This document shows positions 51,001-54,000 of a stretch of DNA of 64,000 nt, in pieces (position 1 is the first letter of the stretch; each line of letters starts with the position of its first letter). Source of the stretch: Escherichia coli O157:H7 (GTDB taxonomy: Bacteria > Pseudomonadota > Gammaproteobacteria > Enterobacterales > Enterobacteriaceae); assembly GCF_013167455.1 (NCBI RefSeq), contig NZ_CP038328.1. One strand, written 5' to 3'. The position numbers are program-made.

Positions 51001-54000
51001 TTGCGCCGCCAGGAATGAAAGCCAGCTATTTTTCCGCCCAGTCATTAGGCTGGTTGGGCGCAGCGGTAAATCCATTAGTGAGTGGTGTTGTACTTACCAC
51101 TCTCCCGTCGTCTTCGCTGTTTATCATTCTGGCGTTAGTCATCATTGCCGCGTGGGCGCTGATGTTAAAAGGTATTAACGCCAGACCCCAGAGGCAACCA
51201 GCACTCTGTTGACGTTCGTGCCGTTCCACTACTGGCACGGCTTCGCTAATCATTATTCTGAGGCAAAGGCATAGCCTTCATCTTCCCAGCCGGTTATCCC
51301 GCCGAGCATGATTTTAACCGGCTTTCCGAGTCGAGCCAGTTTGAGTGCCGCACGGTCTGCACCGTTACAATGTGGCCCCGCGCAATACACCACAAATAGC
51401 GTATCGTCGGGCCATTCGGCCATTCTTTCTGCGGTCATTTGCTTATGGGGTAAATGGAGAGCGCCTGGGATATGCCGACGCGCGAAGTCCTCTTCACGTC
51501 CAACCACATGAAGTAAAACGAAATCATCGCCAATATAAGCCAGAGAGTCATGAACATCGGCGCAATCTGTTTCGACACTCAAGCGCGCGAGAAAATGCGC
51601 CTCAGCAACTTCTGGCTTCGCTGTGGTAAATTCAGTGACATAACGCATATTGCTTTGTCCTTTTGGTTTGTTGTGTTAACAATAATGTAACTAATCTACC
51701 TTTCACTGACCGCCTCTCGATATGCCAGAAATGAGCAAAATGATGACAACGTTACAACGTCCGCTGGTCATTGCACTGGCATATGACGGGCTATGTACTT
51801 TTGAATTTGGCGTTGCCGTTGAAATATTCGGCCTGCCACGACCGGAACTGGGCGATAACTGGTATCGTTTTGCTGTTGCTGCGGTAGAACCAGGTGCGCT
51901 ACAAGCCACCGGGGGGATCCACGTGGTTGCTGATGGTGGACTGGAGTTATTGCCCAACGCCGATATGATTATTATTCCTGGCTGGCGCGGAATAGATGCC
52001 AAAGTGCCGGAGATGCTATGCCAGTCATTGCGCGAGGCACACCAGCGCGGTACTCGCCTGGTATCAATATGCTCTGGCGTGTTTGTCCTTGCTGCTGCGG
52101 GCCTTCTTCATCAGCGAAAAGCAACCACCCACTGGCGCTACACTGAACAACTCCAGCACCGTTACCCTTCAATCAGCGTAAGTGACAATGTGTTATATCA
52201 GGATGAAGGACAAGTGATGACCTCCGCCGGAAGCGCCGCGGGGATCGATCTGTGTTTACATATCGTGCGCAAAGATTTTGGTCATGAGATTGCTAATAAT
52301 GTCGCCCGGCGACTGGTCATTCAGCCACATCGCCAGGGGGATCAACCACAAAATCTGACGCGCCCAATGGCCTCACCGCGTGAAAGCCAGACGTTAGGTG
52401 CCTTATTCGACTTTTTGCAGCAGAATCTGGCACAAACACATACTGTGTCTTCCCTCGCCGAACGGGTAAATATGAGTCCGCGCACTTTTTTAAGACGTTT
52501 TGAGGCGTTAACTGGCATGACGCCCGCCCGCTGGCTGCTCAATGAGCGCTTAATACGAGTACAGGATTATCTGCAAAATTCGGTTTTTAACATCGAGAAA
52601 ATTGCCGAGCTGACGGGTTTTGGCAATTCAGCGTTATTGCGTCATCACTTTCACCAACGTTTTTTATTATCTCCTTCGCAATATCGCAAAAACAGCCGTT
52701 CCCCATCACAATAATCGCCTGATTCAGCCTTTGTTTAGATAACCTCTGCTAATATCTTTCTCATTGAGATAAAAATTAAGGTAAGCGAGGAAACACACCA
52801 CACCATAAACGGAGGCAAATAATGCTGGGTAATATGAATGTTTTTATGGCCATACTGGGAATAATTTTATTTTCTGGTTTTCTGGCCGCGTATTTCAGCC
52901 ACAAATGGGATGACTAATGAACGGAGATAATCCCTCACCTAACCGGCCCCTTGTTACAGTTGTGTACAAGGGGCCTGATTTTTATGACGGCGAAAAAAAA
53001 CCGCCAGTAAACCGGCGGTGAATGCTTGCATGGATAGATTTGTGTTTTGCTTTTACGCTAACAGGCATTTTCCTGCACTGATAACGGATCGTTGACACAG
53101 TAGCATCAGTTTTCTCAATGAATGTTAAACGGAGCTTAAACTCGGTTAATCACATTTTGTTCGTCAATAAACATGCAGCGATTTCTTCCGGTTTGCTTAC
53201 CCTCATACATTGCCCGGTCTGCTCTTCCAATGACCACATCCAGAGTCTCTTCAGGAAATGCGCGACTCACACCTGCTGTCACGGTAATGTTGATATGCCC
53301 TTCAGAATGTGTGATGGCATGGTTATCGACTAACTGGCAAATTCTGACACCTGCACGACATGCTTCTTCATCATTAGCCGCTTTGACAATAATGATAAAT
53401 TCTTCGCCCCCGTAGCGATAAACCGTTTCGTAATCACGCGTCCAACTGGCTAAGTAAGTTGCCAGGGTGCGTAATACTACATCGCCGATTAAATGCCCGT
53501 AGGTATCATTAACCAATTTAAATCGGTCAATATCCAACAACATTAAATAAAGATTCAGAGGCTCAGTGTTGCGTAACTGATGATCAAAGGATTCATCAAG
53601 AACCCGACGCCCCGGCAATCCCGTCAAAACATCCATATTGCTACGGATCGTCAGCAAATAAATTTTGTAATCGGTTAATGCCGCAGTAAAAGAAAGCACC
53701 CCCTCCTGAAAGGCGTCGAAATGCGCGTCCTGCCAGTGATTTTCAACAATAGCCAGCATTAATTCCCGACCACAATTATGCATATGTTGATGGGCAGAAT
53801 CCATTAGCCGAACGTAAGGTAATTCATCGTTATCGAGTGGCCTCAGATGATCAATCCACCGACCAAACTGGCACAGTCCATAAGAATGGTTATCCGTTAT
53901 TTCTGGCTTACTGGCATCTCTCGCGACCACGCTGTGAAACATACTCACCAGCCACTGATAGTGGGCATCGATAGCCTTATTGAGATTTAACAAGATGGCA

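What the first reader, a model, noticed from the sequence alone, without database searches (positions are those of the whole stretch)
51253..52714. Divergent rhodanese and GlxA-type regulator pair between ydeE and mgtS
A single-domain rhodanese (131 aa) and a 330-aa DJ-1/PfpI-AraC fusion regulator are divergently transcribed 73 bp apart. To my recollection K-12 has no genes at this position. The pairing suggests a small sulfur or electrophile-stress module whose inducer and target are unknown.
Basis: inference. Interest (0 to 1): 0.4.

Follow-up and report, generated by a model that had tools for sequence, protein, structure and literature searches.

The report
Conserved FtrA regulator–rhodanese gene pair
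E. coli O157:H7 keeps an old two-gene unit that K-12 and about 93% of sequenced E. coli have lost: a sensor-regulator (FtrA) next to the small sulfur-transfer enzyme it most likely controls. The pair is real and widely conserved, but what it responds to is still unknown.

Summary
A 131-aa rhodanese (51253-51648, minus) and a DJ-1/PfpI–AraC regulator (51722 or 51743 to 52714, plus) sit divergently between ydeE and mgtS. K-12 has neither gene. NCBI already annotates them as a rhodanese-like protein and "FtrA" (Sakai ECs2142/ECs2143).

New here:
- **A conserved module.** About 72 of 80 rhodanese loci across Enterobacterales and Alphaproteobacteria have FtrA divergent about 90-170 bp away. The reverse test held in 4 of 4 informative FtrA loci.
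- **A probable operator.** The spacer carries TTG(G/T)CAT-N15-TG(G/T)CA (window 51722-51749). This 6+15+6 direct repeat matches the footprinted sites of related GATR regulators (CdhR, GbdR).
- **Ancestral, not acquired.** Synteny is shared with other Enterobacteriaceae, GC is host-like and there are no mobile-element marks. K-12 keeps a candidate scar with ftrA's last codons.
- **Selection.** Both genes are under purifying selection (dN/dS 0.07-0.12) between two very old E. coli alleles.

The rhodanese has an unusual invariant two-cysteine loop, C-A-G-P-H-C. Its closest structure, BH2092, has no known function. The inducer and reaction remain inference, with sulfane sulfur, cyanide/isonitrile or a small nitrogen compound as candidates. 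Verdict: a real, uncharacterised member of a known regulator class, of moderate interest.

The parts
51253..51648 (-). Single-domain rhodanese, 131 aa (Sakai ECs_5444, old ECs2142). The active-site loop Y88-C89-A-G-P-H93-C94-N-G-A-D98 is invariant, and so is C29. A two-helix N-terminal extension precedes the domain.
   Evidence: ORF; Pfam PF00581; invariant residues; AF2 model pLDDT 93.8 matches BH2092/3NHV at TM 0.87, rmsd 1.3 A; sequence match to BH2092 E 9e-25; dN/dS 0.12.
51743..52714 (+). ftrA: a GATR-type regulator with an N-terminal DJ-1/PfpI (GATase-1-like) sensor domain and a C-terminal double AraC HTH. It is 323 aa from the PGAP start; an in-frame ATG at 51722 would give 330 aa. E21, C110, H130 and W131 (PGAP numbering) are invariant.
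   Evidence: Pfam; NCBIfam FtrA equivalog 557 bits against a 425 cut-off; annotation; family conservation in 61 sequences; sensor domain closest to isonitrile hydratase with the nucleophile Cys aligned; dN/dS 0.07.
51722..51749 (-). Candidate FtrA operator ('FtrA-box'). Read on the rhodanese-sense strand it is TTGTCAT-CATTTTGCTCATTTC-TGGCAT: two 6-bp direct-repeat half-sites (51743-51748 and 51722-51727) with a 15-bp spacer. The distal half-site contains the ftrA start codon.
   Evidence: Present in 66 of 68 spacers at a fixed 21-bp register and about 93-101 nt from the rhodanese ATG. One hit in the 64-kb window against 0.06 expected. Exactly one hit per locus, always in the spacer, in 51 of the 80 homologous loci. 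Also present in loci not used to derive it. Same 6+15+6 layout as the footprinted CdhR/GbdR/SouR/ArgR sites.
51684..51689 (-). Candidate -10 hexamer of the rhodanese promoter (TACATT; TAnnnT is invariant in Enterobacteriaceae). It would place the half-sites at roughly -71..-66 and -50..-45.
   Evidence: Alignment A2 of 10 enterobacterial spacers; coordinates. Prediction only: no transcription start data, and the simple sigma-70 scan found nothing.
51674..51681 (.). Palindrome TGTTAACA, inside an 11-nt block (TGTTAACACAA) that is invariant in Enterobacteriaceae. It lies just downstream of the candidate -10, over the predicted rhodanese transcription start, and is absent from alphaproteobacterial spacers. 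Its role is unknown.
51658..51662 (-). Shine-Dalgarno-like AAGGA, 9 nt upstream of the rhodanese ATG.
   Evidence: Sequence; conserved GGAG/AGGA column in A2.
51217..51239 (.). Inverted repeat CGTGCC-N11-GGCACG between the convergent ydeE and rhodanese genes. It may be a shared terminator.
   Evidence: Sequence. The terminator scan did not call it because it lacks a T-run.
51030..51212 (+). The 3' end of ydeE forms the left edge of the variable haplotype. K-12, O157 and CE10 are each about 71-79% identical to the others here, while the rest of ydeE is 92-100% identical.
   Evidence: Sliding identity; dS 1.6 over the last 183 nt.
52715..52722 (.). Right edge of the presence/absence polymorphism. 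Homology with K-12 resumes at 52722 (ATTCAGCC), 8 nt after the ftrA stop. The mgtS promoter region is shared by all haplotypes.
   Evidence: BLAST and junction alignments.

Best explanation
This is an ancestral, vertically inherited two-gene regulatory unit. FtrA is an AraC-family activator of the GATR subclass, with a DJ-1/GATase-1-like sensor domain. I infer that a dimer sits on a tandem direct-repeat operator (TGTCAT-N15-TGGCAT) in the 94-bp spacer. From there it would switch on the divergently transcribed rhodanese when its sensor domain meets a small-molecule signal. Because the operator overlaps the 5' end of ftrA, it would also regulate its own gene. The output is a single-domain rhodanese of an uncharacterised subfamily with an invariant two-cysteine active-site loop (C-A-G-P-H-C). 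It most likely carries out a sulfur-transfer or persulfide reaction on, or triggered by, the sensed compound. O157:H7/O55:H7, the IAI39/CE10-type strains and Escherichia ruysiae retain the unit, and most E. coli including K-12 lack it, most simply through a ~1.5-kb deletion. What is shown: the gene content, the conservation of the pair, the conserved motif and its geometry, purifying selection, synteny and absence from K-12. What is inferred: that FtrA binds the motif, that it activates rather than represses, what the signal is, and what reaction the rhodanese performs.
For: - **Pair conservation.** About 72 of 80 rhodanese loci from Enterobacterales and Alphaproteobacteria have FtrA divergent with a start-to-start gap of about 90-170 bp. 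No other gene is universally linked. Starting from FtrA, 4 of 4 informative loci have the rhodanese. A rhodanese only 54% identical keeps the same regulator.
- **Operator.** The TTG[GT]CAT-N15-TG[GT]CA motif is in 66 of 68 spacers at a fixed register and a fixed distance from the rhodanese ATG. It occurs once per locus and nowhere else in about 1 Mb of flanking sequence, and once in the window against 0.06 expected. It is also present in loci not used to derive it. The 6+15+6 direct-repeat layout equals the footprinted sites of the GATRs CdhR, GbdR, SouR and ArgR, which are likewise divergent from their targets and autoregulated.
- **Regulator class.** NCBIfam FtrA equivalog 557 bits against a 425 cut-off; DJ-1_PfpI plus two AraC HTH domains.
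- **Functional constraint.** dN/dS is 0.12 and 0.07 between alleles with dS 0.65-0.85.
- **Ancestral position.** Phytobacter, Pseudescherichia, Kluyvera and Pseudocitrobacter share the mar-eamA-ydeE-(metE-like)-rhd-ftrA-...-dcp order. GC is 0.48-0.54. There are no flanking repeats and no close plasmid copies. K-12's 26-bp junction holds CACAATAA, ftrA's last codons plus stop, in register with the right junction. The closest allele is in E. ruysiae and the cryptic clades.
Against: - There is no experimental evidence for binding, induction or enzyme activity, and no functional paper on FtrA or this rhodanese was found.
- The distal half-site coincides with the ftrA start codon, so part of its conservation could reflect coding or initiation constraints.
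- The promoter elements are predictions; the sigma-70 scan found none.
- The rhodanese loop lacks the cationic residues of classical thiosulfate:cyanide sulfurtransferases, so even its generic activity is uncertain.
- Three loci have another gene inserted between the pair, and three lack FtrA.
- The O157 and CE10 alleles are as divergent as E. coli-Salmonella orthologues (dS 0.65-0.85). Simple vertical descent with a single loss therefore cannot be the whole story; recombination with other Escherichia lineages is probably involved.
Confidence: 0.7

Rival explanations
1. Thiol-switch model. FtrA senses reactive sulfur species or electrophiles covalently through its invariant nucleophile-elbow Cys (C110), as AdpA does through Cys62 persulfidation. 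It then induces the rhodanese to remove or relay sulfane sulfur.
For: E21, C110 and H130 are invariant in a DJ-1-like arrangement. The sensor domain aligns best with the Cys-dependent isonitrile hydratase. AdpA, which has a DJ-1-like plus AraC architecture, is persulfidated by sulfane sulfur. The output gene is a rhodanese. Variable neighbours are thiol- or redox-flavoured: OsmC, ArsR-type HTH, GFA, DsbA-like.
Against: The conserved Cys is common in GATRs that sense non-covalent amine ligands. AdpA's sensing Cys is a surface residue, not the elbow Cys. No sulfide:quinone oxidoreductase or persulfide dioxygenase genes are linked.
Confidence: 0.25
2. Cyanide/isonitrile model. FtrA detects a C≡N compound (cyanide, an isonitrile, possibly thiocyanate), and the rhodanese detoxifies cyanide to thiocyanate.
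For: Characterised GATRs sense small nitrogen compounds, and cyanide is one that a rhodanese acts on. The best structural relative of the sensor domain is isonitrile hydratase, E 1e-17, which scores better than a solved GATR N-domain, 3ER6 at E 4e-10. Carriers are largely soil- and plant-associated genera such as rhizobia, Enterobacter, Phytobacter, Pectobacterium and Methylobacterium.
Against: This rests entirely on circumstantial evidence. The loop C-A-G-P-H-C lacks the Arg/Lys that bind thiosulfate in classical cyanide-detoxifying rhodaneses. No thiosulfate or cyanide genes are linked.
Confidence: 0.15
3. Classical GATR model. FtrA binds an ordinary small organic-nitrogen or sulfur-amino-acid metabolite non-covalently, and the rhodanese is an accessory enzyme of a salvage pathway whose other genes vary by lineage.
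For: The ligands known so far for GATRs are organic-nitrogen compounds, and ligand does not alter DNA binding. Recurrent lineage-specific neighbours include a short MetE-like methyltransferase in 25 of 80 loci and GNAT acetyltransferases in an operon with the rhodanese.
Against: Only the rhodanese is universally linked. E. coli has no accessory enzyme at all. No transporter or catabolic operon is conserved.
Confidence: 0.25
4. The pair is a horizontally acquired O157 island inserted between ydeE and mgtS.
For: It is absent from K-12 and about 93% of complete E. coli genomes. The flanking 3' end of ydeE is highly divergent.
Against: Several Enterobacteriaceae genera share the same chromosomal neighbourhood. 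GC is host-like. There are no repeats, integrase or tRNA and no close plasmid copies. Alleles are present in E. ruysiae and the cryptic clades and in IAI39/CE10-type E. coli strains. K-12 retains what looks like the ftrA stop-codon remnant.
Confidence: 0.07
5. The rhodanese is not the downstream effector but a co-sensor. It would relay sulfane sulfur onto FtrA, or reduce FtrA's modified Cys, forming a feedback pair.
For: Adjacency is very tight across two classes. The two-Cys loop is compatible with persulfide relay or resolution. The rhodanese is more conserved than the regulator, 72-79% against 52-68% identity.
Against: There is no evidence that the two proteins interact. A distant subfamily member is paired with a LysR regulator instead.
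Confidence: 0.1

Closest known systems
GATR regulators of Pseudomonas (CdhR, GbdR, SouR, ArgR, CahR)
   Same: They share the GATase-1/DJ-1-like N-domain plus AraC DNA-binding domain and often keep the conserved Cys. They are divergently transcribed from their target and autoregulated. Their operator is two 6-bp direct-repeat half-sites with a 15-bp spacer, which is the geometry of the FtrA-box. NCBIfam gives a partial match to GbdR (130 bits against a 480 cut-off).
   Different: FtrA is a separate orthologous group (NF006902). Its half-site is TG(G/T)CA(T), not GGTCGC. Its conserved target is a lone rhodanese rather than an organic-nitrogen catabolic operon. Its ligand is unknown. The site abuts the predicted -35 region, whereas CdhR acts from far upstream as a class I activator.
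AdpA of Streptomyces
   Same: It has a ThiJ/PfpI/DJ-1-like domain plus an AraC DNA-binding domain. The FtrA DNA-binding domain matches the AdpA structure 3W6V at E 1e-16. AdpA responds to sulfane sulfur through cysteine persulfidation and represses its own gene.
   Different: AdpA is a global developmental regulator. Its sensing Cys62 is a surface residue, not the nucleophile-elbow Cys. It has no dedicated rhodanese partner.
Isonitrile hydratase InhA (Pseudomonas; PDB 3NON, 6NI5)
   Same: It is the best solved-structure match to the FtrA sensor domain (E 1e-17). SICSG aligns with SVCTG at the catalytic Cys, and the ATTHW motif is shared.
   Different: InhA is a stand-alone enzyme with no DNA-binding domain. 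Whether FtrA catalyses anything is unknown.
BH2092 of Bacillus halodurans (PDB 3NHV, 3O3W) and lp_1913 of Lactobacillus plantarum
   Same: BH2092 belongs to the same rhodanese subfamily. It has the C-x-G-P-x-C-N-G-A loop and the N-terminal helices. The model matches it at TM 0.87, rmsd 1.3 A and 32% identity.
   Different: Both are structural-genomics entries with no assigned function. BH2092 has Ile at C29 and Ala at H93.
E. coli single-domain rhodaneses GlpE, PspE and the YgaP domain
   Same: They share the rhodanese fold and the catalytic Cys at the start of the active-site loop (GlpE; YgaP domain).
   Different: The match is only marginal (GlpE E 0.008; YgaP TM about 0.6). Their loops have no second Cys. 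They lack the N-terminal helical extension and are not paired with a dedicated regulator.
AraC at araI1-araI2
   Same: Both use tandem direct repeats in 21-bp register next to the -35 region of a divergently arranged, autoregulated system. This comparison rests on established knowledge of AraC and the predicted geometry.
   Different: The sensor domain is different (a cupin in AraC). No distal looping site has been identified for FtrA.

Membership tests
GATR (GATase-1/DJ-1-domain AraC-family regulators) | N-terminal GATase-1/DJ-1/PfpI-like domain | tested here: met
   Pfam PF01965, 66.5 bits against a 26.6 cut-off, residues 46-183; PDB matches to DJ-1-superfamily proteins.
GATR (GATase-1/DJ-1-domain AraC-family regulators) | C-terminal AraC/XylS double helix-turn-helix DNA-binding domain | tested here: met
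   PF12833 at 69.9 bits and PF00165 at 47.4 bits; AdpA DNA-binding domain 3W6V at E 1e-16.
GATR (GATase-1/DJ-1-domain AraC-family regulators) | Operator made of two direct-repeat hexamer half-sites with a 15-bp spacer | tested here: met
   A conserved TG[GT]CAT-N15-TG[GT]CA motif is in 66 of 68 spacers. This is the architecture reported for CdhR, GbdR, SouR and ArgR. The evidence is sequence only; binding was not tested.
GATR (GATase-1/DJ-1-domain AraC-family regulators) | Activates a catabolic operon for a small organic-nitrogen ligand | not testable with these tools
   The conserved neighbour is a rhodanese, not a catabolic operon. The ligand is unknown.
FtrA (NCBIfam NF006902 equivalog) | Whole-protein score above the curated cut-off | tested here: met
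   557.3 bits against a 425 cut-off, covering profile positions 3-324 of 327. The name has no functional characterisation behind it in the searchable literature.
Rhodanese homology domain, catalytic type | Rhodanese alpha/beta fold | tested here: met
   Pfam PF00581, 44.2 bits; AF2 model pLDDT 93.8; Foldseek match to 3NHV at TM 0.87 and to many other rhodanese domains.
Rhodanese homology domain, catalytic type | Catalytic Cys as the first residue of the active-site loop | tested here: met
   C89 is invariant in 16 of 16 close homologues and 99 of 99 subfamily representatives.
Classical thiosulfate:cyanide sulfurtransferase (e.g. bovine rhodanese, GlpE) | Six-residue loop with cationic or polar residues that bind thiosulfate (CRKGVT, CYHGNS) and no second Cys | tested here: not met
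   The loop is C-A-G-P-H-C, with a second invariant Cys at position +5 and no Arg or Lys. The comparison loops are from established knowledge.
Cdc25/Acr2-type rhodanese-fold phosphatase or arsenate reductase | Seven-residue C-X5-R loop | tested here: not met
   The residue after C-X5 is N95, invariant Asn and not Arg.
Mobile genomic island (O-island) | Atypical composition, flanking repeats, integrase or tRNA, or a variable insertion site | tested here: not met
   GC 0.48-0.54; no flanking repeats; always one chromosomal copy at the same site; orthologous position in other genera; no close plasmid copies.
Anti-phage defence system | Match to a known defence protein model | tested here: not met
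   No PADLOC hit for either protein.

The most novel reading that the evidence does not exclude
FtrA plus the CxGPxC rhodanese would be a widespread, so far uncharacterised sense-and-respond unit. In it, a GATR, a class known only for organic-nitrogen catabolism, would use its isonitrile-hydratase-like Cys pocket to detect a C≡N compound or sulfane sulfur. It would then induce a two-cysteine rhodanese with a reaction mechanism different from classical rhodaneses. In Escherichia the unit would persist as an ancient presence/absence polymorphism, with haplotypes as old as the E. coli-Salmonella split, which implies niche-dependent selection such as cyanogenic forage in the bovine gut.
Probability: 0.2. 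Interest if true: 0.6.

Novelty: new member of a known kind. Interest (0 to 1): 0.35.

Why it matters
- **A testable regulon.** This turns two O157 "non-K-12" genes of unknown function into a defined, testable unit: one regulator, one predicted operator with exact coordinates, and one target.
- **Reach beyond E. coli.** The same pair occurs in hundreds of species of plant-, soil- and gut-associated Proteobacteria, so a ligand found in one organism would annotate the pair in many others.
- **Widening the GATR class.** Characterised GATRs have so far been tied only to organic-nitrogen catabolism. A rhodanese target would broaden that.
- **A function for an orphan structure.** It would assign a role to a rhodanese subfamily whose only solved structures (BH2092, lp_1913) are functional orphans.
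- **A marker in E. coli.** The locus is a clean example of an ancestral gene pair lost from most lineages but kept in O157:H7/O55:H7 and IAI39/CE10-type strains, which is useful as a lineage marker and as a small case study in gene loss.
- **No known link to virulence or resistance.

Tried and rejected
- **Literature.** Searches for FtrA, for DJ-1 + AraC + rhodanese, for ECs2142/ECs2143, for BH2092/3NHV and for guessed EDL933 Z-numbers found no functional or expression study. The only relevant mention used the genes as non-K-12 microarray controls.
- **CmrA lead.** The CmrA/MexEF-OprN electrophile-sensor idea was not pursued, because I could not confirm its domain architecture and it was peripheral.
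- **Promoter scan.** The sigma-70 scan found nothing in 51150-52850, so the promoter positions come from conservation only.
- **Scar test.** A local alignment of K-12's 26-bp junction against the whole 1.5-kb insert was not significant (430 of 500 shuffles scored as well). Only the end-anchored, in-register 8-mer CACAATAA supports a deletion scar, so I rate that as suggestive.
- **Domain fusions.** The profile search of 1.84 billion representatives found essentially only single-domain relatives and unspecific multi-rhodanese repeats, so it gave no functional clue.
- **First structure model.** The 16-sequence AF2 model was too poor to use (pLDDT 59.5) and was replaced by a 66-sequence model.
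- **C29/H93 covariation.** C29 goes with H93 in 34 of 37 sequences. This hints at a Cys3-His cluster, but it is confounded by phylogeny and I had no model coordinates, so I make no claim.
- **ICH row.** All ICH statements rest on the PDB alignment.
- **Defence system and plasmid cargo.** Both were checked and excluded.
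Full report
**Observation.** The window is E. 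coli O157:H7 (100% identical to strain PV15-279 and others). One is a 131-aa rhodanese at 51253-51648 on the minus strand (Pfam Rhodanese). The other is a plus-strand ORF ending at 52714 with DJ-1_PfpI, HTH_18 and HTH_AraC domains. The 73-bp spacer counts from the first ATG (51722). RefSeq starts the gene at 51743, giving 323 aa and a 94-bp spacer. The genes lie between ydeE and mgtS. In Sakai they are ECs_5444 (old ECs2142) and ECs_2143, annotated "rhodanese" and "ftrA". The regulator passes NCBIfam's FtrA equivalog model at 557 bits against a 425 cut-off. K-12 MG1655 has just 126 bp between ydeE and mgtS. A published microarray used ECs2142/ECs2143 as non-K-12 negative controls.

**Distribution in E. 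coli.** The pair is present in 381 of 5426 complete genomes, always as one chromosomal copy at this site.
- 320 genomes are ≥99% identical: O157:H7, O55:H7 and a few others. O157 is heavily over-sampled, so 7% overstates the true frequency.
- 58 genomes carry an allele only about 84% identical, for example IAI39 and CE10.
- In every one of the 26 K-12-type genomes sampled across the ranking, the ydeE-to-mgtS match spanned 717-718 bp. That fits a single deletion type.
- FtrA proteins 92% identical to O157's occur in Escherichia ruysiae and unnamed Escherichia species.
- One O157 strain (ATCC 43889) has an independent deletion removing ydeE, the rhodanese and most of ftrA.

**Ancestral or acquired?** The evidence favours ancestral.
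- In Phytobacter, Pseudescherichia, Kluyvera, Pseudocitrobacter and others the pair lies in the same mar-eamA-ydeE-...-rhd-ftrA-...-dcp neighbourhood, often with a short MetE-like gene between the rhodanese and ydeE.
- GC content is 0.48-0.54, like the host. There are no flanking repeats and no close plasmid copies.
- Homology with K-12 resumes sharply at 52722, 8 nt after the ftrA stop.
- K-12's private 26-bp segment contains CACAATAA, the last two ftrA codons plus the stop, in exact register with that junction. That is a plausible deletion scar. A non-anchored alignment was not significant, so I call it suggestive only.

The history is not simple, though. The last ~180 bp of ydeE differ by 21-29% in all three pairwise comparisons between K-12, O157 and CE10. 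The O157 and CE10 alleles of the pair have dS 0.65-0.85. To my knowledge that is about the divergence of E. coli-Salmonella orthologues. The locus therefore holds three very old haplotypes, probably moved around by recombination. Both genes are nevertheless under strong purifying selection (dN/dS 0.12 and 0.07).

**The pair is a conserved module.** The rhodanese family, defined by the peptides DFVLLHVV and YCAGPHCN, was found in at least 585 species representatives.
- In the best 80 loci, from Enterobacterales and many Alphaproteobacteria, about 72 have an FtrA homologue divergently oriented with a start-to-start gap of about 90-170 bp.
- Three loci have a phosphorylase gene inserted between the pair, three lack FtrA, and two are truncated.
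- Clustering all neighbouring ORFs showed nothing else universally linked.
- In the reverse test, five FtrA proteins chosen without regard to context gave four informative loci. All four have the divergent rhodanese; the fifth is cut by a contig end.
- A rhodanese only 54% identical still has the DJ-1/AraC partner. A 43%-identical CWGPGC-loop relative has a LysR regulator instead.
- Downstream genes vary: a MetE-like methyltransferase, GNAT acetyltransferases, OsmC, and an ArsR-type HTH with AHSA1 and GFA.

**A probable operator.** Aligning the spacers revealed TTG(G/T)CAT-N15-TG(G/T)CA on the rhodanese-sense strand in 66 of 68 loci across both classes. It sits at a fixed 21-bp register, mostly 93-101 nt from the rhodanese ATG.
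- In the window it is TTGTCAT-CATTTTGCTCATTTC-TGGCAT at 51749-51722.
- The strict pattern occurs once in the 64-kb window against 0.06 expected.
- It occurs exactly once per locus, always in the spacer, across roughly 1 Mb of fetched loci.
- It is also present in loci not used to derive it.

The DNase-footprinted sites of the related regulators CdhR, GbdR, SouR and ArgR are two 6-bp direct-repeat half-sites separated by 15 bp (PMC5806209). That is the same 6+15+6 architecture with a different hexamer. Those regulators are also divergent from their targets and autoregulated.

In Enterobacteriaceae a TAnnnT element (TACATT at 51689-51684) lies 32 nt downstream of the proximal half-site. If it is the -10, the half-sites fall at about -71..-66 and -50..-45, next to the -35 region, as at araI1-I2. 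The distal half-site contains the ftrA start codon, so occupancy should also affect ftrA expression. These positions are predictions. No transcription start data exist, and a simple sigma-70 scan found nothing, which fits activator-dependent promoters. An invariant TGTTAACACAA block over the predicted start in Enterobacteriaceae is unexplained.

**The proteins.**
- *FtrA.* E21, C110, H130 and W131 (PGAP numbering) are invariant in 61 family members. The closest solved relative of the sensor domain is the Cys-dependent isonitrile hydratase (E 1e-17), with SICSG aligned to SVCTG and a shared ATTHW motif. GATR papers state that the conserved Cys is common even in regulators with non-covalent amine ligands, and that ligand does not change DNA binding. 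The Cys is therefore not proof of thiol sensing. AdpA shows that a DJ-1-like/AraC regulator can sense sulfane sulfur, but through a different, surface Cys.
- *Rhodanese.* It has the catalytic Cys (C89) followed by an invariant A-G-P-H-C94-N-G-A, plus an invariant C29 in an N-terminal helical extension. The CxGPxC loop characterises 103 of the top 150 clusters (50% identity) in a search of 1.84 billion representatives. Almost all are single-domain proteins. A confident AF2 model (pLDDT 93.8) superposes on BH2092 (3NHV) at TM 0.87 and rmsd 1.3 A, and next on lp_1913. Both are structural-genomics orphans. The loop fits neither the classical thiosulfate-binding type nor the CX5R phosphatase/arsenate-reductase type.

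**Most likely mechanism.** FtrA, bound as a dimer to the tandem half-sites, activates the rhodanese promoter when its sensor domain is occupied or modified, and regulates its own gene. The rhodanese then performs a sulfur-transfer or persulfide reaction linked to the signal. I give about 0.7 to the regulatory architecture: FtrA acting through this box on the rhodanese, in an ancestral unit lost from K-12. The chemistry is open. My estimates are a thiol or persulfide switch at about 0.25, a classical non-covalent metabolite at about 0.25, cyanide or isonitrile at about 0.15, and a rhodanese-as-co-sensor arrangement at about 0.1. These overlap in part.

**Novelty and score.** The genes are already annotated and known to be absent from K-12, and the regulator class is known. 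Four things are new here: the tight, cross-class coupling of FtrA to this particular rhodanese subfamily, the predicted operator, the evidence for loss rather than gain, and the unusually old haplotypes. I classify it as a new member of a known kind, with interest 0.35. It is a well-posed, cheap-to-test unit of unknown function rather than a surprise.

Noticed in passing
window 48931-49700 (eamA, minus strand): The 3' two-thirds of O157's eamA (cysteine/O-acetylserine exporter) is only 83-92% identical to K-12, whereas K-12 and CE10 are about 94-100% identical there. The stretch 49830-50330 is nearly identical in all three. So the O157 haplotype is a mosaic with a second divergent tract besides the rhodanese-ftrA one.
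   Followed up: partly
window 51030-51212 (3' end of ydeE): The last ~180 bp of ydeE are each 71-79% identical between K-12, O157 and CE10 (dS 1.6 between O157 and CE10), while the rest of the gene is 92-100% identical. Three ancient haplotypes meet inside the gene.
   Followed up: partly
window 51674-51684: An 11-nt block TGTTAACACAA (palindrome TGTTAACA) is invariant in Enterobacteriaceae. It lies right after the candidate -10 of the rhodanese promoter and is absent from alphaproteobacterial spacers. It could be a second operator or a promoter element.
   Followed up: partly
window 52911-53124 (minus strand): There is a full-length Rfam match to STnc560 (282 bits). It lies where K-12 has the MgrR sRNA region, just downstream of mgtS/mgtT (52823-53022) and convergent with them.
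   Followed up: no
L098 (E. coli ATCC 43889, NZ_CP015853) 2931-3464: One O157 strain carries an independent deletion that removes ydeE, the rhodanese and the first two-thirds of ftrA, leaving a 465-bp ftrA pseudogene next to eamA. The locus appears deletion-prone and dispensable in that strain.
   Followed up: yes
L002 (CE10) 1-2000 and 8009-8089: In CE10 the genes upstream of eamA are a GntR regulator and PTS IIB/IIC components rather than marB/marA/marR, and ydeJ is reduced to an 81-bp fragment. There are further rearrangements around this locus in CE10.
   Followed up: no
L004-L083, just downstream of the rhodanese (e.g. L004 6602-7705): In 25 of 80 loci, all of them Enterobacteriaceae among those inspected, a 367-aa short MetE-like protein follows the rhodanese on the same strand (NCBIfam PRK06520 at 724 bits; PDB 1YPX family). 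Escherichia lacks it. In Ensifer, Bradyrhizobium and a metagenomic relative a GNAT acetyltransferase takes that position, overlapping the rhodanese stop.
   Followed up: partly
Rhodanese residues C29 and H93 (window 51562-51564 and 51370-51372, minus strand): Across subfamily representatives C29 and H93 tend to occur together (34 of 37 C29 sequences have H93). CWGP(G/A)C-loop members, including BH2092, lack both. This hints at a C29/C89/H93/C94 cluster, possibly a metal or redox site, but it is confounded by phylogeny and I had no coordinates to check.
   Followed up: partly
window 51217-51239: An inverted repeat CGTGCC-N11-GGCACG lies between the convergent ydeE and rhodanese genes. It is a possible bidirectional terminator without a T-run. 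CE10 has a different sequence at this position.
   Followed up: no
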